A DNA stretch of 43,639 bases from IMG/VR virus record IMGVR_UViG_2617270952_000006. The stretch is one strand, 5' to 3'. The notes below the pieces were generated by a model. The model was not told the origin of the DNA, searched no databases, and saw nothing but the letters and a program-made list of their open reading frames with translations. Within the stretch, counting starts at the first letter, position 1. Every line of letters starts with the position of its first letter. The position numbers were made by a program, and so were the translations under genes. Shown piece after piece: positions 1 to 27,972 of the stretch. This DNA is from a virus (lineage: Duplodnaviria; Heunggongvirae; Uroviricota; Caudoviricetes).

Positions 1-162
1 TGGCAACTGCAGTTCACTTACACCGCTTCTCAACCCGGTACGCACCAGAAAATCATTGATATGGCCATGAATGGCGTTGGATGCCGGGCAACTGCCCGCA
101 TTATGGGCGTTGGCCTCAACACGATTTTACGTCACTTAAAAAACTCAGGCCGCAGTCGGTAA
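1..162 (+). CDS. insA: IS1 InsA, C-terminal part (5' end cut by window edge)
   Basis: Frame 1 reads [53 protein letters not shown] then taa at 160-162, the InsA C terminus. Confidence 0.9.
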
Positions 163-584
163 CCTCGCGCATACAGCCGGGCAGTGACGTCATCGTCTGC
201 GCGGAAATGGACGAACAGTGGGGCTATGTCGGGGCTAAATCGCGCCAGCGCTGGCTGTTTTACGCGTATGACAGTCTCCGGAAGACGGTTGTTGCGCACG
301 TATTCGGTGAACGCACTATGGCGACGCTGGGGCGTCTTATGAGCCTGCTGTCACCCTTTGACGTGGTGATATGGATGACGGATGGCTGGCCGCTGTATGA
401 ATCCCGCCTGAAGGGAAAGCTGCACGTAATCAGCAAGCGATATACGCAGCGAATTGAGCGGCATAACCTGAATCTGAGGCAGCACCTGGCACGGCTGGGA
501 CGGAAGTCGCTGTCGTTCTCAAAATCGGTGGAGCTGCATGACAAAGTCATCGGGTATTATCTGAACATAAAACACTATCAATAA
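81..584 (+). CDS. insB: IS1 transposase InsB frame (made as InsAB' fusion by -1 frameshift)
   Basis: 167-aa [25 protein letters not shown]...IKHYQ recognised as IS1 InsB; overlaps the insA end. Confidence 0.92.
138..144 (+). promoter_or_regulatory. IS1 A6C programmed -1 frameshift motif
   Basis: ttaaaaaactc in the insA/insB overlap, the known IS1 slippery run. Confidence 0.7.
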
Positions 585-599
585 GTTGGAGTCATTACC

Positions 600-715
600 A
601 GCATTTTAAGGATCTCGAAGGTAAAATTGAAGAAAGGCTTCAAAATCGCCAGGCTGAATATCAAAATGAAATTAATCAACCATCTGCGCCAGGTGTTAAT
701 TTTGATGATATTTAA
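600..715 (+). pseudogene. 3' remnant of a chromosomal gene truncated by IS1 (possibly yfdF, by K-12 synteny next to mlaA)
   Basis: Open frame begins at the IS1 end: HFKDLEGKIEERLQNRQAEYQNEINQPSAPGVNFDDI then taa at 713-715. No start codon of its own; convergent with mlaA. Confidence 0.45.
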
Positions 716-854
716 AATTATTTTTCCAGTTTTTTGATTTTTCAACAGCTGAATATCGGAAATAGTCAGTGACGAACATCAGTATTTTTACATAATTACG
801 TCTAGGTCATTGTCGGTTTATCTCCTTTTACTTGTGGTAATTGAGGGATAACAA

Positions 855-887
855 CAAAAAAGGTGAGTTTTGCGACTCACCTTTTTT
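855..887. terminator. Bidirectional intrinsic terminator between the truncated gene and mlaA
   Basis: aaaaaaggtgagt-tttgcg-actcacctttttt: 8-bp GC-containing stem flanked by an A run and a T run. Confidence 0.8.
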
Positions 888-896
888 ATTTGTTTC

Positions 897-1652
897 TTAT
901 TCAGAATCAATATCTTTTAAATCATCCTGAATCGCTTGTGCGTTCGGATTTTCCTGCGGTTTGAGTTCGCCGCCATTAGCGATGAAATCATGACGCTGGA
1001 AGTACGCTTCGCGCACCATAATATAAGGATCGGACGACTGACGCAGCAGACCATCGGAATCCAGCAGCTGAGCGCGGGTTTCGATCCCTTCAAGCGTCCA
1101 TTTACCCACAGACATCGGCCAGGTCAGCCAGGAAAGAACCGGGTAAAGACCATCCGCCATATCACCACCGTCATCACGCAGCGTGAAGCTACCGTAGAAC
1201 GGTAACTGAACGTAAGGCCCATAACCCACGCCATAATGACCAAGCGTACTACCGAAGCGGTGAGGTTCAGTCCGTTGCAGTTTCGGGTTCGCCATCCCTG
1301 CAACATCAATAAAACCGCCCATCCCCAAAATGGTGTTCAGGAAAAAGCGGGTAAAGTGGACCATCCCCTGATAAGGGTCGCCCTGCAAGAAGTAGTTAAC
1401 CATCACCGCAGGTTCTTCAAGGTTGCCAGTAAAGTTGCTCAAACCGTTACGCGCCGGTTGCGGAACATAATCACGCCAGGCGACAGCGACCGGTCGAACA
1501 ATATACGGGTCTAATACATTGAAGTTGAAGTTGTACATGGTGCGGTTGAACCCTTCTAACGGGTCAGAACGCCCTTGCTGATCTGTACCGGAACTCGCAC
1601 ACCCCACCAGAAGCGTAGTTCCCAGAGCAAGCGCCGACAGGCGAAGCTTCAT
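897..1652 (-). CDS. mlaA: Outer-membrane lipoprotein MlaA (VacJ), phospholipid asymmetry maintenance
   Basis: 251 aa, lipobox LLVGC, sequence recognised as E. coli MlaA/VacJ. Confidence 0.95.
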   Translation of the reverse strand: MKLRLSALALGTTLLVGCASSGTDQQGRSDPLEGFNRTMYNFNFNVLDPYIVRPVAVAWRDYVPQPARNGLSNFTGNLEEPAVMVNYFLQGDPYQGMVHFTRFFLNTILGMGGFIDVAGMANPKLQRTEPHRFGSTLGHYGVGYGPYVQLPFYGSFTLRDDGGDMADGLYPVLSWLTWPMSVGKWTLEGIETRAQLLDSDGLLRQSSDPYIMVREAYFQRHDFIANGGELKPQENPNAQAIQDDLKDIDSE

Positions 1653-1945
1653 AAATGTCTCCCTGTTTTTTTATGGCTTATGCAGTTTGCCATCCATGAC
1701 GGAACGATACCGTATCCGCCTGTTTAGGTGTGGGCGATTGTAACAGCACGTCAACTGATGTCCAGACGCCCTGATTTGCTGATTTGATCATAGCCTGGTA
1801 ATCGCCGCCCTGTAGGCTACTTGATTCTATAGAAACAGAAAAAGGCAAACGCAGCCTTTTCTACATTTTCAGAGTAACTCCCGTCAGTTGCGAGCAAAAA
1901 AGCCGCTACGCTTTAGCTATACGTGCTAATTCAAGAGAAGAGACC

Positions 1946-2878
1946 ATGGACAACGACAAAATTGATCAACACAGCGACGAAATTGAAGTTGAGAGCGAAG
2001 AAAAAGAGCGCGGCAAAAAAATAGAAATAGATGAAGACCGACTCCCCTCCCGGGCGATGGCAATTCATGAGCATATCCGCCAGGATGGTGAAAAAGAGCT
2101 GGAACGCGACGCAATGGCGCTACTGTGGTCAGCCATTGCGGCGGGGCTGTCGATGGGCGCTTCGTTACTGGCAAAAGGGATATTTCAAGTCGAACTGGAA
2201 GGTGTGCCGGGCAGCTTCTTGCTGGAGAATCTCGGTTATACCTTTGGTTTTATTATCGTCATTATGGCCCGCCAGCAATTATTTACCGAAAATACCGTGA
2301 CTGCGGTACTACCCGTCATGCAAAAACCGACAATGAGCAACGTCGGCTTACTTATACGGTTATGGGGCGTCGTGCTGCTGGGTAATATTCTCGGGACAGG
2401 TATTGCGGCGTGGGCATTTGAATATATGCCTATCTTCAATGAAGAAACTCGCGATGCATTTGTCAAAATCGGCATGGATGTGATGAAGAACACCCCCAGC
2501 GAGATGTTTGCCAACGCGATCATTTCCGGCTGGCTGATCGCCACTATGGTTTGGATGTTTCCTGCAGCGGGTGCGGCAAAGATTGTGGTGATTATATTGA
2601 TGACCTGGCTTATTGCCCTGGGTGACACCACCCATATCGTGGTCGGTTCTGTTGAAATCCTCTATCTGGTGTTTAACGGTACGCTGCACTGGAGCGATTT
2701 CATCTGGCCCTTCGCACTACCTACTTTAGCGGGGAACATCTGCGGCGGCACCTTTATCTTCGCGTTAATGAGTCATGCACAGATTCGTAACGACATGAGC
2801 AATAAGCGTAAAGCAGAAGCACGCCAAAAAGCAGAACGTGCGGAAAACATTAAGAAAAATTATAAAAACCCGGCATAA
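1946..2878 (+). CDS. yfdC: Inner-membrane FNT-family protein YfdC
   Basis: 310 aa, polytopic membrane protein with acidic N terminus; recognised as YfdC; K-12 synteny mlaA-yfdC-argW. Confidence 0.9.
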   Translation: MDNDKIDQHSDEIEVESEEKERGKKIEIDEDRLPSRAMAIHEHIRQDGEKELERDAMALLWSAIAAGLSMGASLLAKGIFQVELEGVPGSFLLENLGYTFGFIIVIMARQQLFTENTVTAVLPVMQKPTMSNVGLLIRLWGVVLLGNILGTGIAAWAFEYMPIFNEETRDAFVKIGMDVMKNTPSEMFANAIISGWLIATMVWMFPAAGAAKIVVIILMTWLIALGDTTHIVVGSVEILYLVFNGTLHWSDFIWPFALPTLAGNICGGTFIFALMSHAQIRNDMSNKRKAEARQKAERAENIKKNYKNPA

Positions 2879-3153: not shown

Positions 3154-3190
3154 GTGGATAAAATAATTTTACCCACCGGATTTTTACCCA
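3145..3190. repeat. Three copies of TTTTACCC (one inverted) over the intS promoter and start
   Basis: gggtaaaaa at 3145-3153 (inverted), ttttaccca at 3167-3175 and 3182-3190. Candidate integrase/RDF binding sites. Confidence 0.4.
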
Positions 3191-4347
3191 TGCTCACCGT
3201 TAAGCAGATTGAAGCAGCAAAGCCGAAAGAAAAACCATACCGCCTACTCGATGGTAATGGCCTGTACCTTTATGTCCCTGTGTCAGGGAAAAAGGTATGG
3301 CAGCTTCGCTACAAGATTGACGGTAAGGAGAAAATCCTGACCGTAGGAAAATATCCGCTAATGACTTTGCAGGAGGCAAGAGATAAAGCATGGACCGCGA
3401 GGAAAGACATCTCGGTTGGCATCGATCCGGTAAAAGCGAAAAAGGCTTCGTCTAACAACAATTCCTTTAGTGCAATTTACAAGGAATGGTACGAACACAA
3501 GAAGCAAGTCTGGTCAGTAGGGTATGCGACTGAACTTGCAAAAATGTTTGATGACGACATTTTACCCATCATCGGCGGTCTTGAGATTCAGGATATTGAG
3601 CCGATGCAACTGCTGGAAGTAATCCGCAGATTTGAAGATCGCGGTGCAATGGAGCGAGCCAACAAAGCCCGCAGAAGATGCGGCGAGGTTTTCCGTTACG
3701 CTATTGTCACTGGTAGGGCTAAATATAACCCGGCACCTGACCTTGCAGACGCCATGAAAGGATACCGCAAGAAGAACTTCCCGTTTCTTCCTGCAGACCA
3801 GATCCCTGCATTCAACAAAGCACTGGCAACATTTTCAGGAAGCATCGTATCGCTCATTGCGACCAAAGTTTTACGCTACACAGCCCTAAGAACGAAAGAG
3901 CTTCGTTCCATGCAATGGAAGAACGTCGATTTTGAAAACAGGATTATCACTATCGACGCCAGTGTGATGAAGGGCCGCAAGATTCATGTTGTTCCTATGT
4001 CAGACCAGGTGGTTGAACTTCTCACTACGCTAAGCTCCATCACTAAACCAGTATCAGAGTTTGTTTTTGCCGGGCGCAACGATAAGAAGAAGCCAATCTG
4101 CGAGAACGCGGTATTGCTTGTTATCAAACAAATCGGCTATGAGGGTCTGGAAAGCGGTCACGGATTCAGGCATGAATTCAGCACAATTATGAACGAGCAC
4201 GAATGGCCTGCTGACGCTATTGAAGTGCAACTGGCACATGCCAACGGCGGATCTGTGCGTGGAATTTACAACCATGCTCAGTATCTCGATAAGCGCAGAG
4301 AAATGATGCAGTGGTGGGCGGACTGGCTTGATGAAAAGGGGGAGTGA
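3190..4347 (+). CDS. intS: Tyrosine integrase, IntS (KplE1/CPS-53, Sf6, HK620 type)
   Basis: 385 aa from MLTVKQIEAAKPKEKPYRLLDGNGLYLYV; C-terminal HGFRHEF...HANGGSVRGIYNHAQY catalytic motifs; adjacent to argW as in K-12. The GTG at 3154 in the ORF track is probably not the start. Confidence 0.93.
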   Translation: MLTVKQIEAAKPKEKPYRLLDGNGLYLYVPVSGKKVWQLRYKIDGKEKILTVGKYPLMTLQEARDKAWTARKDISVGIDPVKAKKASSNNNSFSAIYKEWYEHKKQVWSVGYATELAKMFDDDILPIIGGLEIQDIEPMQLLEVIRRFEDRGAMERANKARRRCGEVFRYAIVTGRAKYNPAPDLADAMKGYRKKNFPFLPADQIPAFNKALATFSGSIVSLIATKVLRYTALRTKELRSMQWKNVDFENRIITIDASVMKGRKIHVVPMSDQVVELLTTLSSITKPVSEFVFAGRNDKKKPICENAVLLVIKQIGYEGLESGHGFRHEFSTIMNEHEWPADAIEVQLAHANGGSVRGIYNHAQYLDKRREMMQWWADWLDEKGE

Positions 4348-4438: not shown

Positions 4439-6442
4439 TCAAATCAGCCCATAAATAACATTATGCAAATGAAGAGAGCCTGCTTCACCGGAAACATCAA
4501 AATCAATCCTAACTTTGCTTGCTCCAGGAGGAACAATATCTATTAATGCGTAGAAATTCCATGTGGAGCCTGATGGAATTGTAAATGTTGCTTTTCCCTG
4601 AACAGAGTTCCCTTCTTTATCAAAAAACTCAATACCAGAGATTGTTGTCACTTGATTCTTAGCCCAAAAACCTAACTGGAAATATCGTCCTGGTGAGCAG
4701 TCTGAGCACTCCTGATAAAATTTTGCAGATGCTCCTATAGATGGTATTGCTACATACAAAGACCTGGAAAACATAATATCATTTGGAACATCAGAATCCG
4801 TTCCTGCTGTAACAACACCTGAACCAGTTTGTTGAAGGCTCCAGTTAGAGTAGTTTAAAAACTGTCCACTTCCATTTGATAGCGAATTTATGTATGGACT
4901 AACTATGTTCCCTTTATCCCACTGAGTTGTTATAAATCCAGATCGTGGATAGCATCCATATGACATTATTTTTTTACTATTACCTCCAACTACCTGTCTA
5001 GTTGCTGATCCTGTCGCCAAATCCATTTGGTCAAATAAAGGCAATGAGCAATTTGTTAATGAAAGTACTGAATCATCATTTACAACAAACGGAACTGAAC
5101 TATATCCAGAGGGAGTAAGTAGCGTTGTATCTTTAATGCTTATTCTTGTGCTTCCAGATGCAGAGAACGCCACAAAGCTTTGACCTGGCTGAAACTCAAT
5201 ATTTCCACTTGAGTAAACAACGGTTGCGTTATCTTCAATAAAAACAGTAGAATCAAAATAACCTTCTTTCTTACCTGCTGGCATAGAGCAACAGTTAAAA
5301 ATAAATTGACCATTTCTAATTGTCAATGGACCTCCATTATCAACAACCCAACAATTATTAAATGTCATTACCTCGCCTGAGTTTGATGGAGAATTAAATA
5401 TAATTGTGTTGTTTAGACATCTTGATATTGTTACTTTGTCAAATAAAATTCTATATGAATTATCAAGAAACTCAATTCCAGCAGATGATATGAATGAAGA
5501 ATTACTTATTCTTAACTCTGATAATTCACCAGTGCCAATACCTCCAAGTAAAATCTTTTTAGATCCTAGCATCTTAAAAGATATGCCATCTAAAATTGAT
5601 GTTGCATTTATTTCATCCCTATTATCATAAGAAATATTAGAGTTACTTAACCTAATTGCATAATCACCTGATATCCCATTAATCTCAGTTAAAACGCATT
5701 TATTCGATCCTCTTAACCCACCTTTCGCGAAATCAATATCAATTAAAGACGAGAATTCTCCACTACATGGAACAACGCAATCATAACCTAGAGAGTTTAT
5801 TTTATTAATAAATAATGCAATATCCCCAGCGCCGCTGTAACCAGCGTCATATACAGAAAACTCAAGGCTTGGGTTTATTCTCTTCCAATTTACACCGTTA
5901 CCTTCTAAAACCATTACGTTATCAACTGCAATTGACTTGTCTACAGCTACAACAAACCCACCACCAAGTTCGAGTCCGGATACGTATGATTTTAAATATA
6001 ATTTATCAGATATCGACATTCCTTGTATATCTTTAAGGGAGTTAGCGCTCTCTACCATTCCAATGTATTTGTATCCAATATTACTTGATAGTTTTATAGA
6101 TAACTGATCAGGATCATACTTCAGCACATTAGGAAAATAGAACTGCTGCGCACCGTACGCATCATAAACAGCCATAGAATGGCCTTGCACGGTTACGAAT
6201 TTGGCAATCTGTCCGTTATATACCGGGTAACCAGCAGCGTTAATGATGATTGGTTGCGATACAGGAACGTGAGAACCGTCTTCGTTCTCTACATAAACCT
6301 GAATCTGGTTTTCAGGATTTACCGGGTCAGTGTCAATTTTTCCGATATAAATTTTGCCATTGGCATTTGCTTTAAACGAGCGAGCTAAAGTAAATAACTG
6401 ACTTGGTTGTGAAACAACAACGTTGTATAATTGTTCTGGCAT
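4439..6442 (-). CDS. Tailspike: conserved P22/Sf6-type head-binding N domain plus divergent receptor-binding C-terminal part
   Basis: [107 protein letters not shown] matches the P22-family N domain. Start taken at ATG 6442 (MPEQLY); an upstream ATG at 6451 is possible. Confidence 0.9.
6403..6431 (+). promoter_or_regulatory. Candidate sigma70 promoter for the HNH-AP2 gene, antisense within the first tailspike codons
   Basis: TTGGTT (6403-6408), 17 bp, perfect TATAAT (6426-6431), about 35 nt upstream of ATG 6465. Confidence 0.35.
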
Positions 6443-6464
6443 AATAAACATTCCGGAGAAAATA

Positions 6465-6965
6465 ATGAGTAAGAGACGTCACGAGGTAGTAACTCGGGAG
6501 CGCCTTATGGAGGTTCTCGATTACAATAAAGAAACAGGAATTTTCACTTGGAAAAAGAAATTAAGCGCCAGAGGTGCTGTTGGGAAAGTTGCTGGCACAA
6601 TTTCTTATGGATATAACGCAATTAATATTGATGGCGTAAGATATTTTGCACATAGACTTGCCTGGCTGTATGTATATGGCGAATGGCCCAAACAAGAGAT
6701 TGACCACATTGATAGAAACAGAAGAAATAACGCAATCTCAAACCTTAGGGATGTCAGCAGAGTCGTAAATGCATTAAATGTCGGACCTCGAAATAGCAAT
6801 GCTGGAATCAAGGGGGTAACTTTCTGTCAAGCCAGAAATCAATGGCAAGCTCAGATAAATGTCTCAGGTAAAAACATAACCCTTGGGAGATTCAACACCA
6901 TTGATGAAGCGGCTATAGCTTATAAGGCAGCAAACATGGTTGCTGACCATCTGTTGAGTAGGTAA
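6465..6965 (+). CDS. Free-standing HNH homing endonuclease with C-terminal AP2 DNA-binding domain
   Basis: HNH motif [18 protein letters not shown]; AP2-like [44 protein letters not shown]; SD ggag 6 nt before the ATG; AT-rich. Confidence 0.85.
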
Positions 6966-7075: not shown

Positions 7076-8011
7076 TCAGTAGTTATGTACTGAAGGAGGT
7101 AATTCTTTATTCTTAAGTCTCATCCATGCGGAAAGATTCGTTGGTCCGTCTGGCTCATTAATATCAACATCTCGTGTGCGATTGATTAAAACGTCTCTCG
7201 CCATTCCGATAACATACGAGAACTCATGACCGTAGTCGTAGCATCTGCCTGAATAGTTCGATTGAATTTGTTTTAGCGCCGGATACAGTTCGCGGAATAA
7301 TGCCTGTGAGCGGTTGGCATAATCCCATAACCATACAAGGCTGTTTACTTCTTTTGCAGAAAGCTCGTTGGTTTTCTTCTCTTGTTTGCCAATGAACTCA
7401 CCTTCAAGTGGAACTCGAGCTGCAAGTGATAGTGCTTCGGTAAACTGCTCCTCACTGATTTCTTTGTATGAACATCCAAAATGGGATTTCAGTGACGACC
7501 ACATGGTGATCATCGCCTTAGCCTGTTTTTCCTTTGGCAGAGACTGACCGCGACTCATGACGAGTTGTTTAATGGCTTCCTGCTGTTCAGTGGTGATTTT
7601 ACCCGGCAACGCCTTTTTAGCTTTGCGCGGGTTAACTACATGGCCTTTAGTCCAGTAGTCATGCAGCACGCTAAAGCATTCCTCCTGGTACTGAATCAGT
7701 TTATCGCGGATGTCAGCACGAACTTTCTCAGGGTTGATGCTGAACAGCCATCCATTTAACTTCTTCAAAGGAAGGCAGAGTAGCTTACGAAGCTTTCCAT
7801 CAGCAGCAACCATATTCATATGAATACATTTGAACTTATCTAGTTGTTTCATAAGTTTTTGTTGCTGAGTACCCCAGCTCATTCCGAGGTTTTCAACGAT
7901 TGGCTTCATCGCAACATATGCAACTCCGGCAGCCATGGCGGTGATAATTTGCTGACCGTTGAATGGTACGTAAGAGGTGTTCACTGCTTCTAAAATTGCT
8001 ATACTATTCAT
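7076..8011 (-). CDS. ant: Antirepressor Ant (P22 immI)
   Basis: [26 protein letters not shown]... recognised as the P22 Ant N terminus; SD ggag upstream of ATG 8011. The longer ORF to 8077 is probably not used. Confidence 0.9.
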
Positions 8012-8073
8012 GTTGGTTTTTCTCCACGGATTTACTGACAACCGAAGCCCTGACTGTTCCCGCAGTTGGGGCT

Positions 8074-8256
8074 TCACTGTTTTATGTTCACATCTAACAT
8101 TGTTTTTCTAGAATTTAACTCTTTCCCCATCGCTTCAACGCAAAGAGATACACAACTACTACAGATAAATATCTCTGCTTTAGCGCGAATCAACATTGCA
8201 CATTCATGCTGAGGCTTTCCGCAGAAGGAGCACTTAAAGCCATCTTCTTTATTCAT
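8074..8256 (-). CDS. Small ClpX-type C4 zinc-finger (ZBD-like) protein between arc and ant
   Basis: 60 aa; [31 protein letters not shown] is collinear with the ClpX N-terminal zinc-binding domain, with 4 Zn cysteines. Its ATG overlaps the arc stop (ATGA). Confidence 0.75.
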
Positions 8257-8405
8257 ATCGCCACCCCCTCTTTCTTCAGGCTGTCTATCAGGCGCTTGAT
8301 AACCTCTGAGTTAAACGACCTGCACTCTTCCTTTGCCCTGCTACCGATAGCATCCTTTAACGACTGCGGCATCCTTACCAAAATCTTACTTATTTCTTTC
8401 TCCAT
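8253..8405 (-). CDS. arc: Arc-like ribbon-helix-helix repressor
   Basis: [50 protein letters not shown] versus P22 Arc ...NGRSVNSEIYQRVMESFKKEG; strong SD ggaggg. Confidence 0.85.
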   Translation of the reverse strand: MEKEISKILVRMPQSLKDAIGSRAKEECRSFNSEVIKRLIDSLKKEGVAI

Positions 8406-8441
8406 GTTACCCTCCACACAAACAACTCTTTTCGAATACAA

Positions 8442-8519: not shown

Positions 8520-8768
8520 ATGGCAAAGGGTGTGTCAATTTCTCCAACTACGGTAAGAATCCCTGAATCTTTACGCGAGGCTCTTGCTGTTAGAGCATCA
8601 AAAAATGGTCGCTCTGTTAACTCCGAGATCGTCATGATTTTGCAAGCCGCGATTGATGAAGATAGGTCGCCAAAGTCAGTTGAGTCATTTGCTCAGCAAG
8701 AAGCTGACAAATTCAAAGAGGCGCTGCTGGAGACGCTGAAAACCATGTATGGTAAGGATGATAAATAA
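8520..8768 (+). CDS. mnt: Mnt-like ribbon-helix-helix repressor
   Basis: 82 aa; RIPESLREALAVRASKNGRSVNSEIVMILQAAI resembles the P22 Mnt RHH; C-terminal helical tail; divergent from arc. Confidence 0.85.
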   Translation: MAKGVSISPTTVRIPESLREALAVRASKNGRSVNSEIVMILQAAIDEDRSPKSVESFAQQEADKFKEALLETLKTMYGKDDK

Positions 8769-9304
8769 TGCTGCACACAATTCATTTCTTATGCCCCGTT
8801 AACACCGCCACTGTTGGGCAACTTCAGAACCACTGTCTCACCGCATTATCTCAAGGCGCAACTGAATTAAATATCCATATATCAAGTCAGGGAGGGGAAA
8901 CTGCCGCTGGTTTTACTGCGTATAACTTTCTTAAGTCACTCCCTGTTACCGTTAGAACTCACAACATAAGCAATGTTGAATCCATAGCTAATATCGTTTT
9001 CCTGGCTGGCTCAGAACGTTTCGCAAACCCATTATCAAGATTCCTGTTACATCCTCTATTATGGGGCTTTGCCTCCCCAGCCGCCGACCATGCCAGACTG
9101 AGAGAGTACGGGAAATGCCTCGATAACGATCTTGATCGCTTCGTTGAGACGTTCAATATCGACATCGGAACCCATATTAGGTGGGCATCCCTGATAGCAG
9201 ACTCGACCATTTTGGATGCTAACAAGGCTCTTGAGCATGGCATAATTAATTCCATAAAAACTGCAAGGCTGGCATCCAATCAGGCAAACTGGTGGGTTGT
9301 TTGA
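8768..9304 (+). CDS. ClpP-family (S14-like) serine protease paralogue lacking the ClpP N-terminal region
   Basis: 178 aa collinear with ClpP: ISSQGGETAAG, NVESIAN (Ser), RFANPLSRFLLHPL (His), ADSTILDANKALEHGIINSI (Asp). Start overlaps the mnt stop (TAATG). Confidence 0.7.
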   Translation: MLHTIHFLCPVNTATVGQLQNHCLTALSQGATELNIHISSQGGETAAGFTAYNFLKSLPVTVRTHNISNVESIANIVFLAGSERFANPLSRFLLHPLLWGFASPAADHARLREYGKCLDNDLDRFVETFNIDIGTHIRWASLIADSTILDANKALEHGIINSIKTARLASNQANWWVV

Positions 9305-9330
9305 TGGGTAAATCATGATTACTCCTTATA

Positions 9331-9356
9331 AAAAACCCACCTGACGGTGGGGTTCA
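9331..9356. terminator. Bidirectional terminator between the ClpP-like gene and the lipoprotein gene
   Basis: aaaaa-cccacc-tgac-ggtggg-gttcattt. Confidence 0.6.
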
Positions 9357-9360
9357 TTTC

Positions 9361-9780
9361 TTAATCTTGCTTCGTGGAAGGTATAAGAGATGCATTTGCC
9401 TCTTTTGGCTTCAATGTATACATCCCACCATTAAATGGATCAACAGCAAGCCAACCAATTAACCCACCAAACACAAGGTTTCCACCAATATACCAACCAT
9501 TAGCATTGGCTTTGATTGGCAGGGTAACTGGTTCGTACCCATCCTTCTCCATAGTGATCTGGTAGCTCTTTTTGCCAAAATAGCTACCATCTGACTTGGC
9601 GAGTGTTACACCTTGTGGAGTCTTACCTTGCGCAACAATCACACCCGATTCATCTTTTACCTTAAAGCTCGCGCCAGAAGGATTGCTGTTCACTTGCACA
9701 AGTTGCGTTTCATCACCAACAATAGTTGCGCACCCAGATAACATGATAACGCCAGCAACGACGCTAATAATCCTCTTCAT
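9361..9780 (-). CDS. Lipoprotein with PEGA-like domain (moron at the P22 sieA position)
   Basis: MKRIISVVAGVIMLSGC lipobox signal; NPSGASFKV PEGA-like motif; glycine-rich hydrophobic C-terminal segment. Confidence 0.7.
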   Translation of the reverse strand: MKRIISVVAGVIMLSGCATIVGDETQLVQVNSNPSGASFKVKDESGVIVAQGKTPQGVTLAKSDGSYFGKKSYQITMEKDGYEPVTLPIKANANGWYIGGNLVFGGLIGWLAVDPFNGGMYTLKPKEANASLIPSTKQD

Positions 9781-9897
9781 ATCAATTTCCATATTTAAAA
9801 AACCGGAAACATCCTAATGACAAAACATTCAAATGTGAAGTAGGCAAAAGATGTTTACTTTTTTCATGGTATCCTGCTCAAAACTAAGGAGGTTGGT

Positions 9898-10125
9898 GTG
9901 AAGCGATGGTTCCTCATAATTACTGTTTTCGCGATCATTTACACTATTTTCCCTGCATTAAAAGCACCAATGCAAATAATTTCACTAGCAATAATTTCGA
10001 TTGGTGCTTTCATTGCAGTAGCCGTACTTGTGTTTAAGGTTTTAAAGTTTTTAGTTTGGCTATCAAAAGATGATGGATGCAAAGTTCATCAAGAAAAAGA
10101 AGGCAAAATAACCAAAGTTGACTAA
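9898..10125 (+). CDS. Small two-TM membrane protein (GTG start)
   Basis: Strong SD aaggagg 5 nt before the GTG; two hydrophobic helices then a charged tail. Confidence 0.6.
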   Translation: MKRWFLIITVFAIIYTIFPALKAPMQIISLAIISIGAFIAVAVLVFKVLKFLVWLSKDDGCKVHQEKEGKITKVD

Positions 10126-12245
10126 CTGTCACTAGCGAGCCATGTAATAATCCCCGTGCGGGCAATGGTTTTTGCTTCATCTGTTGATAAGGTTTTCTCC
10201 CATCTCTTAAATGCCCCAGATTGCATCAGTTTCCTTTCTATTGCGCGTCTCACTTCTGCTCTGTCTACTGGTGCGTTTTGCAGGCGAAATAGCATTGATT
10301 TAAACTCAGGAGAAGATAGCAGAGCATCAGCAGCCTTTATCCTGCTTGTTTTCCCTGACATCAATGCAGACGTTATCACCCCTGTTGCACCTACACCAGG
10401 GAGACCAGATAAGCTTGTAATACCTTCCGCCGCAGCAGCTTTTGAGGCTATTCCATAAATTTTTGCGAGACTACCCTTTTCTTTCAGAAAGTTATTAACT
10501 TGCTGATCCACAAGACTACTAGCATACTGCTTACCAGTATTGAGTCTATTCATAGCCTTAGCTGCTTGATAAATCGTATCAAGGCGCTTTGATGCATCTG
10601 TGCCAATAGCATCACGGAGAGCCTTCATATTGGCCCCATTGCGTGACATTCCGTTATACCATTTTACAAATCCATCAACTCCTAATTGCTGACCAGGTGA
10701 TTTGGCATAGCTGGTAAATGCTTTATTCATTGAGGTGAGCGCAACTTCCTGCCGCATATCCTTTGGAATCGACTTCATTAATTGCCTAAAGTCGCCACCG
10801 TTTCCTTTTGCCATATTAACAACAGCACTTTCAACTTTTGGAATTGCTGATTGCTGAAGTTTTCTACCCAAGACGGTTACAGCATCATCTTCAATGGATT
10901 TTCGTTTTTTTACCAACTCCTTACCAAGCGTCCATAATTCCCCTGCGCCATATTTTTCTGCGACAGCCTGTTGGTCATCTGTTATGGCTGCATATAACTT
11001 TTTAAGAACACCTGTTTCTTCATCCTTGAATGGACCAGAGCCTTTGCCAATAGCTTGTCCAACCTGCTTTCTAGCGAGATCTAAACGCCCATACGTTGGC
11101 AAGGTGTTTGGATCAAGTCGGTTCAATGTCCGCTTCATTATTGGAGATAATTCATCAATTCCACCTATGTCATCAGCAAAATCCTCTAAAAAATTCAATG
11201 TATTAGTTGCCTCAATCCGGTCTCTTACAGGAACCTTTTCGGCAATTTTGTTGTAGATGTTATCTGACTGATTTTGTAATGATGAAATGGTTTTATCAAA
11301 ATTATCTGCAAGCCTGTCAGAAACCAGTTGCTTATCAAGGCTTCCCCCAAATGAAGTTATCATTTCATCAGCTTTTCTTCCTAATTCAGTAATAAAACGC
11401 TTATGCGCCTCACTAATCTCTGTTCCAGGGAGACTTGCCACTGCATTATCAAGAGCCCTGACAGCAGGATTATTAGAGATCATGCCTGGAGTGGCATAAT
11501 TTTCCAGTTCTAGCTCACGAATAGCATTTATCGCGTTAAAATCAGGATTAACTTCATCGGCGAAATCTTGAATAGCTCGTTGCCCGCCGATAAATTTATT
11601 GTCCATTGCGCCAGCAGCTTTCTTTAACGTTGCTTTAGATGATTTACTACCCATCCCTACGGATGAGCGATAAATATCTCCGGCACTATTTTTAATTTTT
11701 CCTGCAATCTTCCCAAGCGCTGGACCAACAATCTCGGCTACAGGGCCAGCCACAGCGCCAATAGCAGCGCCGGAAGCAACATCGCTATTTGTTCCATTGG
11801 CTACAATAGCCCCTTCTCCAGCACCAAGCCCTGCGGCGGCAGCCAGCCTTGCCGCCCCTTTCGGAACCTGAGAAATAATCCCACCACCACTAACAAATGG
11901 CGCTGCTTGTCCAACGAACTCACCAACATCTTGTGCGGTTGATGGTTTTGCCGCTAACTTCTGCTGTAGAGACTGAATTGCGGCTTGCTCTTCTGGTGTC
12001 ATGTCCTGAAACAGGCCAACACCTTTACCAACATCCATCAATCCACTGAGAACGCCATACATAAAACGGTCGAAGCCGTTAGCATTATTAACAACATTTT
12101 CCTGTCTGGAATTTTCCTCTAGTGAAACCAAAGGAGATTGCTGCTGTTCTGGTTGTGCATCAAGCACAAAGCCATCAGGAAGCTGTGAGTTATCAGGCTG
12201 TTCATCCAGAACAAACCCCTCTGGTAAACCTACATTGGTTGCCAT
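10122..12245 (-). CDS. Ejection (DNA transfer) protein, P22 gp16 homologue
   Basis: 707 aa, last of the three ejection-protein genes in P22 order gp7-gp20-gp16; Gly/Ala-rich regions. Confidence 0.8.
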
Positions 12246-13579
12246 TGTCCGTTCCTGTAAATAATTTTCTGACCAGTTTTAGGATTTTTCGCGGTCATAC
12301 CTTCTCGAAATGTTTGACCGCCAGATGTTGCTTGTTGTGTCTGTTGTTGCGCAGGCTGCTGAATATCTTCATACAGCTTGGCTTTTCTGGATTGCAATTG
12401 CTTAGTTAGTCCGCTGGGGAGAGAATCCCCATAAGTTGAAAGATAATCATCCATTTGCTGATTAAACTTTTCTCCTTCAGTATTTGCCATCAGTTTTGAG
12501 GTGTTGATTAAGTCTTGGACTTGCTCATTATTCAGCATCTTGCCGTTAGATAATTGGCTAACATAGTTACCAAGTGTGCCAAATATTCCATCAGTGCGTT
12601 TTACCTGCACTTGCTCACCTTCGCGTACCACAGATTGCGGATCCAGCGATTTCATATAGTTGAAAATCATTCCCAACTGCGCGGCTGGAGTGTTGCGCTT
12701 CCCAAGGGCTTGTAGGTTGTCAGAAGCACTGCGCATTGCAGAATAATTCTTTGAGAACCCATTAATATCACTATTCAGATCTCGAACAAGTTTTGGGTCA
12801 ATCTTTCCGCTTTCCTGTTGTTTCATCCCTAATTCCTGCAACTTCAGGGCTACGTTATCATTATGCATTTGTGCCCGCTGAGCCCTGTCTAGTTGAGCGT
12901 TTTGGATATTTGCCCATCCTCTCGCGTTCTCCATGTCAGCCTGACGAATGCTTTCATCCAATCGCCCTTTCTCAAGTTGGCGACCAACCATCTTATCCTG
13001 ATAATCCAGCATTTTATCCGGACCAACAGCCCCTAGCGTCATAGTAGTCAGCATGTGTGATAGCTGCTCTGGATTCTGAATACCTGTCTGAATCATCCAG
13101 TCAGCATTCGCCCCCACGCGATTTAACCTGTCCTTGTTGTCAGTAATGAATTTACTGTAGGCTTCCGGTCCCTGAGAAAGAGCGACGTTAGCCCTCATGG
13201 CTAAATCGCCCATATCGTTGCGTTGCTGCTCATTAAGACCGGAAAACGCCTGTTGTGCCTGTGCAACAAACGCTGGATTTTCCTGGGCAAACTTAAATAG
13301 TCCCGATGGATCACCAGAAGCCCATGCATCAGCGTGAACCTTATTGAACGCACTAATCGCTTTCTGTTGCTGTTCCTGATTGTAAATATCAGCAACTCCA
13401 GCCAGACCACGTAACGCGGTCAGACCAACGTTATTTGCCCCTGAGCGAGCCAGTTCATTGTTTTCGCGGATCAGACCAAGCGTTGCGTTAATGTCGCTTG
13501 CCTTTGGCGCATTCTCATTTTGCGTACCGATGCCAGCCAGAAAACCACCAGAATTAATACCCTGTTGCCACGTAGCCAT
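12230..13579 (-). CDS. Ejection protein, P22 gp20 homologue
   Basis: 449 aa, position between the gp7 and gp16 homologues; size close to P22 gp20. Confidence 0.8.
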
Positions 13580-13589
13580 TGATTACCCC

Positions 13590-14282
13590 TTAAAACAACG
13601 AGCCAAGCAGACCAAGACCAGCACCGATACCAGCACCCCACGGAGTTGATAGCTCGAGAGCACTGGCTATGCCACCACCCAAAAGCGCACCGGATGCAGC
13701 ACCACTAACCCCCTGCTGCAATGCTGACGGTCGGTTGGCGTTTGCCGCTGCAAGAGCCGCGCTTTGCTGTGAAATCTGACTCATGTTGTTGGCATATGTT
13801 TGCCCGGCGTTTGCCTGACCTTGCAGTGCGCCAAGACCAATATTTGCCAGATTCTGGTAGTTGTTCATCTGACCAGATAGCCATTGCTGACCAAGCGTTG
13901 GTGCGATTGTTGCTAACTGATTACTGGTTGCGGTGGAACCCAATCCACCTGTTGCTTCCGCTGCCGCCAGACTCTGATAGCGAGCCTGACCAGCAAGATC
14001 TTTGTACTGCTGAGAGTTGTAATACTGGTTAAGCGCCTGACCTTGCCCCTCCAGAGACGATAAGTTTTCGAGGCTTACGACATACTTATCAGCCAGAGGA
14101 GTAAACGGCTTCAGGTTGTTCATGATGGTGTTGAACTGCTGATTTTGCAGGTCTGCTGCATACTTCTGAGCTTCTGCGGCATACTTTGCGCTTTTATCAG
14201 AACTGCCACCTTTCCCACCCTTTTCAGGGCAATAAGGTTCCTCGCCGCGCAGTTTTCTGCCCAGCTTAAATGCATATAACAT
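13590..14282 (-). CDS. Ejection protein, P22 gp7 homologue
   Basis: 230 aa, Q/N/A/G-rich with Gly-rich hydrophobic C terminus; position and size as P22 gp7. Confidence 0.8.
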   Translation of the reverse strand: MLYAFKLGRKLRGEEPYCPEKGGKGGSSDKSAKYAAEAQKYAADLQNQQFNTIMNNLKPFTPLADKYVVSLENLSSLEGQGQALNQYYNSQQYKDLAGQARYQSLAAAEATGGLGSTATSNQLATIAPTLGQQWLSGQMNNYQNLANIGLGALQGQANAGQTYANNMSQISQQSAALAAANANRPSALQQGVSGAASGALLGGGIASALELSTPWGAGIGAGLGLLGSLF

Positions 14283-27398: not shown

Positions 27399-27573
27399 TC
27401 AATCTGTCCTCGCGCTCTTTGCGCTTGTAGTACCAGTTGATGCCAAATGTGCCGACAGTACAAAGAATACCAATGATGACAGCCCAGTCATTCAGGGAGA
27501 GAATGCCACCCATCGCAGTCAGTCCTCCGAAGCTGTAACTGAACCATTCTCTGATTTTGTCCATACGGTACAT
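27370..27573 (-). CDS. Class II (pinholin-like) holin with dual start motif
   Basis: 67 aa, MYRMDK (Met1/Met4 separated by Arg), two TM segments, charged C terminus; precedes the SAR endolysin. Confidence 0.8.
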
Positions 27574-27972
27574 GCTCTACCCCTTCATTGAGGGGATTTG
27601 CTCTATTTAATTAGGAATAAGGTCGATTACTGATAGAACAAATCCAGGCTACTGTGTTTAGTAATCAGATTTGTTCGTGACCGATATGCACGGGCAAAAC
27701 GGCAGGAGGTTGTTAGCGCAACCTCTTGCCACCCGTTTTCACGAAGGTCATGTGTAGAAGGCCGCAGCGTAACTATCACTGATGAATTCAGGATAGCCAG
27801 TGGCTACGGCTCAGTTTGGGTTGTGCTGTTGCTGGGCGGCGATGACGCCTGTACGCATTTGTTGATCCGGTTCTGCTTCCGGTATTCGCTTAATTCAGCA
27901 CAACGGAAAGAGCACTCGGTGCATTTAAGCCAAGCCCCATAAGGGAGAATGCCCTTACCTGTTGTGCAGATA

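What the first reader, a model, noticed from the sequence alone, without database searches (positions are those of the whole stretch)
9361..10125. Divergent pair of envelope morons at the sieA position (PEGA-like lipoprotein and 75-aa two-TM protein)
Seen: between the ClpP-like gene and gp16, where P22 carries sieA, lie two genes. One is a lipoprotein gene (lipobox LSGC, PSGA motif, Gly-rich hydrophobic tail) on the late strand, with a terminator downstream. The other is a divergent 75-aa membrane protein gene with a very strong SD (aaggagg) and a GTG start. Its 3' end overlaps the gp16 stop by 4 nt on the opposite strand. Inference: these are lysogenic-conversion or superinfection-exclusion candidates, for example receptor masking or blocking DNA entry. 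The function of either is unknown to me.
Basis: partly seen in the sequence, partly recalled or inferred. Interest (0 to 1): 0.5.

Follow-up and report, generated by a model that had tools for sequence, protein, structure and literature searches.

The report
Two independent prophage envelope-protein genes
Two small envelope-protein genes of unknown function sit in the variable region of a P22-like E. coli prophage; they are unrelated add-on genes rather than a pair, and the 75-residue one occupies the exact slot, with the same start signals, where phage P22 carries its superinfection-blocking gene sieA.

Summary
There is a 139-aa lipoprotein gene (9361-9780, minus strand; lipobox LSGC; terminator 10 nt downstream). 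Divergent from it is a 75-aa gene with two hydrophobic segments (9898-10125, plus strand; AAGGAGG, then GTG). Its end overlaps the stop of the gp16-type ejection-protein gene by 4 nt.

They are not a functional pair. In 5426 complete E. coli genomes the lipoprotein occurs in 124, the 75-aa gene in 34, and both adjacent in 4.

The 75-aa gene is the real sieA-slot occupant. A 34-nt leader (9867-9900) matches the P22 sieA leader at 33 of 34 positions and ends in the same GTG. In IMG/VR this leader precedes at least 11 unrelated protein families. Nine have strongly hydrophobic segments, and only SieA has a known function.

The lipoprotein is 100% identical to ε34 gp15. It belongs to a very large uncharacterised bacterial family: a PEGA-like β-sandwich plus a near-invariant Gly-rich motif. 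Copies are scattered in prophage tail clusters, including the HK97 gp15 exclusion-moron position, and some lie outside prophages.

A superinfection-exclusion role is plausible for the 75-aa protein and weaker for the lipoprotein. Neither function is shown.

The parts
9361..9780 (-). Lipoprotein gene, 139 aa. Signal peptide with lipobox LSGC; Ala at +2, so outer-membrane sorting is predicted by rule. PEGA-like β-sandwich plus conserved Gly-rich motif. An in-frame upstream ATG at 9792 would add 4 residues.
   Evidence: 100% aa identity to ε34 gp15. phrog_6823 at E=2e-86. PEGA at 17.5 bits, below cut-off. Alignment A1: C17 invariant, motif nearly invariant. AF2 pLDDT 77.
9330..9351 (-). Intrinsic terminator for the lipoprotein gene: hairpin 9351-9336 plus T-run. 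The same hairpin on the plus strand follows the ClpP-like gene.
   Evidence: ε34 annotates the equivalent site as a Rho-independent terminator.
9811..9839 (-). σ70 promoter-like site upstream of the lipoprotein gene (TTCACA-17-TAGGAT). A predicted site only.
   Evidence: 9 of 12 matches, and such sites are no more frequent than in shuffles. Both hexamers are conserved in ε34.
9867..9900 (+). Conserved 34-nt sieA-type leader. It contains TGGTATCCT (resembles an extended -10; my inference), the SD AAGGAGG at 9886-9892, and the GTG start at 9898-9900.
   Evidence: Matches the leader of P22 sieA at 33 of 34 positions, and is identical to the leaders of E. coli elppa4 sieA and ε34 gp14. Unique in the window. 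Found in at least 120 IMG/VR stretches ahead of 11 unrelated ORF families.
9898..10125 (+). 75-aa gene in the sieA slot. Two hydrophobic segments (about 4-21 and 27-49) joined by PALKAP, then an invariant charged C-terminal tail.
   Evidence: phrog_7294 at E=1e-48. 21 clusters, all E. coli or Salmonella, at least 84% identical over full length (one short fragment aside). A second strong-RBS context, GGGAGG-N5-ATG.
10122..12245 (-). 707-aa gp16-type ejection (DNA transfer) protein gene. It converges on the 75-aa gene and overlaps it by 4 nt. It was found next to the 75-aa gene in every context examined.
   Evidence: phrog_6704, and phrog_770 'DNA transfer protein' at 2e-26. Synteny with gp20 and gp7 homologues. 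Linkage in 9 of 9 and 10 of 10 contexts.

Best explanation
These are two unrelated, independently acquired prophage add-on genes that happen to lie back to back.

(A) The 75-aa gene.
Shown:
- It occupies the P22 sieA slot. It converges on the gp16 ejection-protein gene and starts at the same GTG, behind the same 34-nt leader (extended -10-like TGGTATCCT plus AAGGAGG).
- This slot is a cassette site. The leader is the fixed left junction and the gp16 end is the right junction. At least 11 unrelated proteins are found there, most of them predicted envelope proteins.
Inferred:
- The product is an inner-membrane helical hairpin with both termini in the cytoplasm (positive-inside rule).
- It is made in the lysogen, either from the sieA-type leader or, in other prophages, from the mnt operon.
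- Like SieA, T4 Imm or HK97 gp15, it interferes at the inner membrane with the DNA-delivery conduit of superinfecting P22-like phages. Its preferred targets may be phages with the 707-aa gp16 type it always travels with.

(B) The lipoprotein gene.
Shown:
- It is a self-contained unit with a promoter-like site, the gene and a terminator.
- It is identical to ε34 gp15.
- It belongs to a very large uncharacterised bacterial lipoprotein family. Copies are scattered through tail-gene clusters of unrelated temperate phages, and some lie outside prophages.
Inferred:
- It is sorted to the outer membrane. Its Gly-rich hairpin inserts into the membrane or contacts an outer-membrane protein.
- It changes an envelope property of the lysogen. 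Candidates are receptor masking or an entry block of the Cor/Llp kind, or envelope robustness.
For: For the 75-aa gene:
- Leader identity with P22, elppa4 and ε34. P22 annotates PsieA just upstream of this leader.
- 118 complete ORFs behind the leader fall into 11 families. Nine have hydrophobic 17-mers above 1.6. Only SieA has an annotated function.
- There are at least 8 unrelated sequence types upstream of the leader.
- Two hydrophobic segments. Net charge is +2 for residues 1-3, +1 for the short connecting loop (KAPMQ) and +2 for the C-terminal tail (7 K/R against 5 D/E).
- Evidence that it is coding. There are two different strong RBS/start contexts at the same codon. One variant has an in-frame 3-aa duplication, and differences among homologues are mostly hydrophobic-for-hydrophobic swaps within the two segments. 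The ORF was intact in all 11 copies compared at the nucleotide level.
- The commoner arrangement is mnt-orf92-orf186-75aa, with no plus-strand terminator in between.
- Linkage to the 707-aa gp16 in 9 of 9 and 10 of 10 contexts.
- Low GC, 0.36 against 0.41-0.47 for the surroundings.

For the lipoprotein:
- Lipobox and conserved motif. Terminator and promoter-like site. Terminators also follow the homologues in Proteus and Pseudescherichia prophages.
- Prophage contexts: between tail chaperone T and the tape measure gene, which is the position of the HK97 gp15 exclusion moron (PMC3594210); between I and J; next to an antirepressor gene in Actinobacillus.
- AF2 β-sandwich with a low-confidence helical hairpin at residues 95-112.

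For independence of the two genes.
Against: - There are no functional data for either protein. The papers searched name neither.
- The 75-aa protein has no sequence similarity to SieA or HK97 gp15 and lacks SieA's FxRYPxEAxxFNK motif.
- dN/dS is uninformative: 1-18 differences per pair, with ratios from 0.1 to 1.5.
- AF2 modelled the 75-aa protein as one long helix (pTM 0.35), so the hairpin rests on hydropathy alone.
- The simple scan finds no canonical -35/-10 promoter for the 75-aa gene. The extended -10 reading is my inference.
- The 707-aa gp16 type also occurs with three other cassettes. The linkage may therefore reflect adjacency only.
- For the lipoprotein, the Gly-rich segment is below transmembrane-level hydrophobicity.
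- Homologues sit among housekeeping genes in Enterobacter and Xenorhabdus, and there are 5312 cluster representatives. This favours a general envelope role over a phage-specific one.
- PADLOC reported no significant match for either protein; its only hit, for the 75-aa protein, was at E=0.095.
Confidence: 0.5

Rival explanations
1. The lipoprotein is a general envelope-fitness or lysogenic-conversion factor rather than an anti-phage protein. Possible roles are outer-membrane robustness, stress or serum resistance of the Bor kind, or adhesion. Phages have simply borrowed a common bacterial lipoprotein.
For: - Homologues lie among housekeeping genes, outside any prophage, in Enterobacter and Xenorhabdus.
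- The family is very large: 5312 cluster representatives at E<=1e-3, with a motif conserved far beyond phage hosts.
- It occurs in phages with unrelated tails and receptors, so no single phage receptor is implied.
- PADLOC reports nothing for it.
Against: - It recurs at positions where exclusion morons are known: the HK97 gp15 slot and the P22 ant moron (PMC3594210).
- HK97 gp15 itself derives from a bacterial family, YebO, that has no anti-phage role (PMC3594210). Bacterial homologues therefore do not exclude exclusion.
Confidence: 0.35
2. The 75-aa membrane protein has another role. It could be a membrane-damaging effector or toxin (abortive infection, or type I toxin-like, with late-operon transcription running antisense to it). 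It could also be a helper of its own phage's gp16, which would explain the strict linkage.
For: - It is small, with two hydrophobic segments.
- It lies fully antisense to late-operon read-through.
- It is always found beside the same gp16 type, with overlapping stop codons.
- There is a weak, non-significant PADLOC '4TM effector' hit at E=0.095.
Against: - A strong SD behind a leader that drives sieA in uninduced cells would be hard to tolerate for a toxin.
- The same gp16 type works with three other cassettes and without the 75-aa gene, so the protein is not needed for gp16 function.
- The slot is occupied by SieA in other phages.
Confidence: 0.15
3. The 75-aa ORF is not translated. Its conservation would reflect recent shared ancestry with the neighbouring gp16 end, or an RNA-level role.
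For: - dN/dS is not clearly below 1.
- The last 100 nt are invariant among the 11 copies compared at the nucleotide level, as expected for recent co-transfer with the 99%-identical gp16.
- The family is narrow: only E. coli and Salmonella, at least 84% identical.
Against: - Two unrelated upstream contexts both supply a strong SD and a start codon at the same codon.
- One variant has an in-frame duplication, and most substitutions among homologues are hydrophobic-for-hydrophobic.
- A 75-codon open frame in 36% GC DNA has roughly a 0.4% chance per start (my estimate).
- The leader drives known or annotated proteins in the other cassettes.
- No Rfam family matches here.
Confidence: 0.04
4. The lipoprotein and the 75-aa protein form a two-component envelope system, with an outer-membrane and an inner-membrane partner expressed from a divergent promoter region.
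For: They are divergently arranged with a 105-bp (117-bp from the annotated lipoprotein start) shared intergenic region. One is predicted to be in the outer membrane and the other in the inner membrane.
Against: - Only 4 of 5426 complete E. coli genomes have both adjacent, while 124 have the lipoprotein and 34 have the 75-aa gene.
- In IMG/VR the lipoprotein is paired with 4 different cassettes, and the 75-aa gene lacks it in 8 of 10 loci.
- The lipoprotein also occurs in siphovirus prophages that have no 75-aa gene.
Confidence: 0.03

Closest known systems
P22 SieA (superinfection exclusion protein A, phrog_7745)
   Same: - Same genomic slot: between gene 16 and the immI genes, converging on gene 16.
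- A near-identical 34-nt leader (33 of 34 positions) with the same SD and GTG start.
- A small, strongly hydrophobic protein.
- The prophage context is the same kind of P22-like (Lederbergvirus) genome.
   Different: - No sequence similarity.
- 75 aa with 2 hydrophobic segments, against 164 aa with 3.
- No FxRYPxEAxxFNK motif.
- Linked to a different gp16 type. The window's gp16 has no BLASTP match to P22 gp16 and is 23% identical to the ε34/HK620 type.
- Function untested.
HK97 gp15 (and, from my own knowledge, T4 Imm): small inner-membrane proteins that block phage DNA entry
   Same: - Same size class (62 aa for gp15), membrane-embedded, moron-encoded and prophage-expressed.
- It acts on incoming tail or conduit proteins rather than on receptors (PMC3594210).
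- A homologue of the window's lipoprotein sits in the gp15 position of HK97-like E. coli prophages.
   Different: No sequence similarity to the 75-aa protein. gp15 has a single N-terminal hydrophobic segment. The phage type and the target (tape measure protein) are different.
ε34 gene 15 product (ACF16641, phrog_6823)
   Same: 100% amino-acid identity and 96% nucleotide identity. Same position, orientation, terminator and upstream intergenic region.
   Different: Nothing differs at the protein level. [quoted passage not shown]
Cor (φ80/N15) and T5 Llp: phage outer-membrane lipoproteins that inactivate the receptor FhuA. λ Bor: a serum-resistance lipoprotein.
   Same: A small phage-encoded lipoprotein with an outer-membrane sorting signal, carried as an add-on gene within or beside tail genes.
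   Different: - Only the signal peptide aligns with Cor: NCBIfam 13 bits against a cut-off of 31, PHROG E=0.0016 over residues 5-24.
- The fold is different: a PEGA/transthyretin-like β-sandwich plus a Gly-rich hairpin.
- No target is known.
PEGA domain (PF08308) / transthyretin-like 'carboxypeptidase regulatory' β-sandwich
   Different: The score is below Pfam's gathering threshold (17.5 versus 20.8 bits). The family-defining C-terminal motif NGWYIGGNxVFGGLIGWLxVDPFNGGMY is not part of PEGA, and no Pfam family covers it.

Membership tests
SieA (P22-type superinfection exclusion A, types A-C) | Sequence homology to SieA, including the conserved cytoplasmic motif FxRYPxEAxxFNK | tested here: not met
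   BLASTP of the 75-aa protein against P22 SieA gives a best E of 3.6. The PHROG hit is phrog_7294, not phrog_7745. The motif is absent from the sequence.
SieA (P22-type superinfection exclusion A, types A-C) | Located in a P22-like prophage between gene 16 and gene 9 homologues, converging on gene 16 | tested here: met
   The leader and start codon match those of P22 sieA at 33 of 34 positions.
SieA (P22-type superinfection exclusion A, types A-C) | Integral inner-membrane protein | tested here: inconclusive
   There are two strongly hydrophobic segments and no cleavable signal peptide. The AF2 model is a single long helix with pTM 0.35. Localisation cannot be tested with these tools.
SieA (P22-type superinfection exclusion A, types A-C) | Blocks DNA injection by P22-like phages | not testable with these tools
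   Needs plating, K+ efflux and DNA-entry assays.
Bacterial lipoprotein (signal peptidase II substrate) | N-terminal signal peptide ending in a lipobox [LVI][ASTVI][GAS]C | tested here: met
   MKRIISVVAGVIMLSGC. Cys17 is invariant in 36 of 36 homologues, and LSGC/LTGC dominates.
Bacterial lipoprotein (signal peptidase II substrate) | Outer-membrane sorting: no Asp at position +2 (Lol avoidance rule; established knowledge) | tested here: met
   +2 is Ala (invariant) and +3 is Thr. Actual localisation is untested.
PEGA domain (PF08308) | Score at or above Pfam's gathering threshold | tested here: not met
   17.5 bits against a cut-off of 20.8, E=0.0039. 8 of 40 distant relatives hit PEGA at E<=0.01.
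PEGA domain (PF08308) | Transthyretin-like β-sandwich fold | tested here: met
Cor phage-exclusion lipoprotein (NF047972 / phrog_1119) | Full-length match above the curated cut-off | tested here: not met
   13 bits against 31. Only the signal-peptide residues 5-33 align.
Moron (Juhala et al. 2000; PMC3594210): independently expressed add-on gene | Present or absent among otherwise syntenic relatives | tested here: met
   Both genes are present in some P22-like genomes and replaced in others.
Moron (Juhala et al. 2000; PMC3594210): independently expressed add-on gene | Own promoter and terminator | tested here: inconclusive
   The lipoprotein terminator is clear. Its promoter is only a 9 of 12 consensus match. 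The 75-aa gene has a conserved sieA-type leader but no detectable terminator, and no transcription start is mapped.
Moron (Juhala et al. 2000; PMC3594210): independently expressed add-on gene | Base composition differs from neighbouring genes | tested here: met
   This holds for the 75-aa gene only: GC 0.36 against 0.41-0.47. The lipoprotein gene is not distinct, at 0.43-0.45.
HK97 gp15 / YebO family | Sequence homology | tested here: not met
   No BLASTP alignment at E<=100.

The most novel reading that the evidence does not exclude
The conserved 34-nt sieA leader marks a cassette-exchange site. At this site P22-like prophages swap at least 11 unrelated envelope proteins, each a different blocker of phage DNA entry. 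The 75-aa hairpin would then be a new, minimal superinfection-exclusion protein, aimed at the conduit built by the 707-aa gp16 type it always accompanies. Exclusion specificity and ejection-protein type would then be inherited as one module.
Probability: 0.25. Interest if true: 0.65.

Novelty: new member of a known kind. Interest (0 to 1): 0.45.

Why it matters
Leavitt et al. 2024 left open how SieA-type exclusion copes with the extreme diversity of gp16 and gp20 (PMC10883804).

If the genes sharing the sieA leader are alternative exclusion proteins, the slot is a ready-made panel for that question. It holds at least 10 uncharacterised candidates, the 75-aa protein among them. Each comes with a naturally linked ejection-protein type, so specificity becomes directly testable.

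Several of these small genes are not annotated in deposited phage genomes.

The lipoprotein belongs to one of the larger bacterial lipoprotein families that still has no Pfam model or known function. Its repeated capture by temperate phages gives a handle on what it does.

As it stands, the finding is a solid annotation and a testable hypothesis. It does not demonstrate a new mechanism.

Tried and rejected
- dN/dS on seven distinct 75-aa gene sequences: too few changes, with ratios of 0.1-1.5. Not decisive.
- AF2 of the 75-aa protein: one long helix, pTM 0.35. No support for or against a hairpin.
- The afdb50 library was unavailable.
- PADLOC, NCBIfam and Pfam gave nothing significant beyond a sub-threshold PEGA hit and signal-peptide-only Cor matches.
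- Pfam scan of 40 distant relatives, looking for informative fused domains: only sporadic SH3 domains and one OmpA-like fusion.
- Literature searches by accession, PHROG id, 'PEGA + lipoprotein + prophage', 'hkcB', and outer-membrane lipoprotein plus exclusion: nothing on either protein.
- Hofer et al. 1995, the source of PsieA, is not held, so the annotated P22 promoter could not be checked against primary data.
- I asked whether phage L's orf62 (L lacks a SieA phenotype) is the 62-aa cassette. It is not: L and ST64T are absent from the hits, so no inference follows.
- Rfam finds no RNA family in 9300-10200, only sar at 8012-8078.
- The idea of a functional two-gene system was rejected on co-occurrence counts.
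Full report
**Context.** The window is a P22-like prophage together with its chromosomal junction.
- Host-like genes lie at 81-2878, followed by an integrase (3154-4347) and a tailspike gene with a P22 head-binding domain (4439-6451, minus strand).
- The immI/'ant moron' region follows: ant (7076-8077, minus), sar RNA (8012-8078, Rfam 87.7 bits), arc (8253-8441, minus), mnt (8520-8768, plus) and a ClpP-like gene (8768-9304, plus).
- After the two genes of the finding come the ejection-protein genes: a gp16-type gene (10122-12245, minus; phrog_6704, and phrog_770 'DNA transfer protein'), then gp20-type and gp7-type genes.
- Villafane et al. 2008 named this stretch between gene 16 and the tailspike gene the 'ant moron' and showed that it is in rapid flux among P22-like phages (PMC2629481).
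- A nearly identical prophage segment is in E. coli APEC20/16 (99.9% over 9300-10200).

**Observation.** Three refinements follow.
- The lipoprotein most likely starts at the second ATG (9780), giving 139 aa.
- The Gly-rich segment (residues 94-119) is internal. It is followed by two β-strands that return to the domain in the AF2 model.
- The PEGA match is below threshold.

**The two genes are not a unit.**
- Among 5426 complete E. coli genomes, the lipoprotein gene (at least about 90% nucleotide identity) is in 124, the 75-aa gene is in 34, and both adjacent in 4.
- In IMG/VR loci that carry the sieA-type leader, the lipoprotein gene lies upstream in 21 of 118. There it is combined with four different downstream genes. 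The 75-aa gene lacks it in 8 of 10 loci.
- EC.P3, E212, E. coli A2 and E. coli 55989 have the 75-aa gene with other neighbours. ε34, Gally and 720R6 have the lipoprotein with another slot gene.

**The 75-aa gene is the sieA-slot gene.**
- Alignment of the upstream regions shows an invariant block: TGGTATCCTGC(T/A)CAAAACTAAGGAGGTTGGTGTG. It is shared by the window (9867-9900), P22 sieA, a sieA gene in E. coli elppa4 and ε34 gene 14 (hkcB-like). The block ends in the GTG start, and the coding sequences diverge immediately afterwards.
- In elppa4 and in strain A2 the gene upstream (a P63C-domain gene) and the intergenic region are the same. SieA and the 75-aa gene start at the same coordinate, each followed by a different gp16 type.
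- P22's annotated PsieA lies just upstream of this block. Leavitt et al. showed that 85 bp upstream plus sieA, in single copy, gives full exclusion (PMC10883804).
- The block contains TGGTATCCT, which I read as an extended -10 element (TGn plus TATCCT). That is an inference. The simple -35/-10 scan finds no plus-strand promoter there.

**The slot is a cassette site.**
- The 118 complete ORFs that begin at the GTG (including the window's own copy) cluster into 11 unrelated families. These are hkcB-like (37), a 129-aa protein (25), a 62-aa protein (11), the 75-aa protein (10), SieA (8), and six others of 3-6 members.
- Nine families have hydrophobic 17-mers above 1.6, and a tenth has a milder signal-peptide-like N-terminus. 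Only a 140-aa family looks soluble.
- Only SieA has an annotated function in PHROGs.
- Upstream of the 34-mer there are at least 8 unrelated sequence types, and conservation stops 2-4 nt before the block.
- So the leader is the fixed left junction, with variable sequence on both sides. The right junction is the end of gp16.
- The cassette type correlates with the gp16 C-terminal cluster. All 10 copies of the 75-aa gene, and 9 of 9 contexts from the contig look-ups, have the 707-aa type with the 4-nt overlap. All 8 SieA copies have the P22 type.
- The correlation is not reciprocal: the 707-aa type also occurs with three other cassettes.

**Is the 75-aa ORF a gene?**
- dN/dS is uninformative.
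- Two independent initiation contexts support translation. One is AAGGAGG-N5-GTG behind the sieA leader. The other, in the commonest version (P0127, over 600 contigs), is GGGAGG-N5-ATG at the same codon.
- In that commonest version the gene is last in a tight mnt-orf92-orf186-75aa array. A Pmnt-like promoter precedes the array and there is no internal plus-strand terminator. In P22, mnt is described as a maintenance-of-lysogeny repressor, so co-transcription from Pmnt would give lysogen expression.
- One variant has an in-frame 3-aa duplication. Most other differences among homologues are hydrophobic-for-hydrophobic swaps inside the two hydrophobic segments.
- Residues 50-62 and 64-68 of the C-terminal tail are invariant across all 21 homologues, and the rest of the tail is nearly so.
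- Predicted topology, from hydropathy and the positive-inside rule (inference): N-in, transmembrane segment 1 at about 4-21, a tight PALKAP turn, segment 2 at about 27-49, and a cytoplasmic charged tail. AF2 did not resolve this.

**The lipoprotein.**
- It is 100% identical to ε34 gp15. [quoted passage not shown]
- The word-indexed search found 715 relatives in Enterobacterales and Pasteurellaceae. The exhaustive profile search found 5312 cluster representatives at E<=1e-3 and 1993 at E<=1e-10.
- Invariant or nearly invariant features are GC-ATIVGD at the lipidation site and NGWYIGGNxVFGGLIGWLxVDPFNGGMY. The latter becomes ...DPxTGAMY in distant members.
- AF2 (pLDDT 77) gives a confident β-sandwich at residues 25-93, a low-confidence two-helix hairpin at 95-112, and two returning strands.
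- Structure searches return only generic transthyretin, PEGA or CnaB-like domains.
- The Gly-rich segment is too weakly hydrophobic for a classical membrane span. A re-entrant or oligomerising glycine-zipper hairpin is my inference.
- The Ala at +2 predicts outer-membrane sorting.

**Contexts of lipoprotein homologues.**
- E. coli HK97-like prophages: between tail chaperone T and the tape measure gene. This is the position of the HK97 gp15 superinfection-exclusion moron (PMC3594210).
- Proteus prophages: just upstream of the tape measure gene, with a promoter-like site and a terminator.
- Pseudescherichia: between I and J, with a terminator.
- Actinobacillus: next to an antirepressor gene.
- Enterobacter and Xenorhabdus: among housekeeping genes, with no phage genes nearby.
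- In the window the gene has a 9 of 12 promoter-like site (9839-9811) and a strong terminator. It also lies on the late strand, between gp16 and the tailspike gene. Late read-through should therefore express it during lytic growth as well (inference).

**Mechanism.**
- For the 75-aa protein I favour an inner-membrane block of DNA delivery by analogy with SieA. The grounds are the same slot, the same expression signals, a membrane protein, and adjacency to the conduit protein gene.
- This is an inference from position, at roughly 35-40% for the specific function.
- For the lipoprotein I cannot separate exclusion or receptor masking (about 25%) from a general envelope role (about 35%).

**Comparison and novelty.**
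- Neither protein is a member of SieA, Cor or gp15/YebO; each of these was tested and not met. Both belong to existing PHROGs of unknown function (phrog_7294, phrog_6823).
- The region's variability is published.
- I did not find in the papers searched a description of the fixed sieA leader as a junction shared by at least 11 unrelated, mostly hydrophobic proteins. I also did not find the placement of the 75-aa gene in that series.
- I rate the finding as new members of a known kind (prophage morons), of moderate interest.

Noticed in passing
window 8074-8256 (-) and 8768-9304 (+); also L004, L005, L008: The immI region carries a 60-aa ClpX C4 zinc-finger ORF (PF06689, E=4e-11) between arc and ant. 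It also carries a 178-aa ClpP-like gene immediately after mnt, with the stop and start codons overlapping. The same mnt(Arc-family)-ClpP-like unit plus an antirepressor gene sits inside the tail-gene cluster of HK97-like E. coli prophages. A protease-based layer of antirepressor control is conceivable but was not examined.
   Followed up: partly
window 9867-9900; IMG/VR loci L034-L153: The 34-nt sieA leader precedes at least 11 unrelated ORF families in P22-like viral contigs. Ten of them have no known function.
   Followed up: partly
phiv205-1 (MN340231) 12548-12733; UPF_BP1 (KX776161) 27495-27680; JEP4 (MT740315) 13887-14072: The 62-aa cassette with two hydrophobic segments, which sits behind the same leader, has no annotated feature in these deposited phage genomes. 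Small slot genes are being missed by annotation.
   Followed up: no
window 6465-6965 (+): An HNH_3 plus AP2-domain ORF (homing-endonuclease-like; PF13392 at E=2e-16) lies on the opposite strand between the tailspike gene and ant. Related prophages have only about 100 nt there (for example L017).
   Followed up: partly
window 8012-8078 (+): sar antisense RNA (Rfam RF00262, 87.7 bits, full length) overlaps the start of the ant gene, as in P22.
   Followed up: yes
L004-L007, about 12261-13425: The HK97-like E. coli prophages that carry the lipoprotein homologue also carry a porin gene (Porin_1/Porin_4, 357-387 aa) inserted between the M and L tail genes. This is a second outer-membrane add-on gene in the same tail cluster.
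   Followed up: no
window 81-2878: The left end of the window looks like host chromosome. By eye it holds an IS1-type transposase fragment, a VacJ/MlaA-like lipoprotein gene and a formate/nitrite-transporter-like membrane protein gene, followed by the prophage integrase. The window therefore spans a prophage-chromosome junction.
   Followed up: no
L019 4412-4972 and equivalents (L020-L027): In the commonest arrangement the 75-aa gene is preceded, in the mnt operon, by two further uncharacterised ORFs of 92 aa and 125-186 aa. The second ends in a hydrophobic segment.
   Followed up: no
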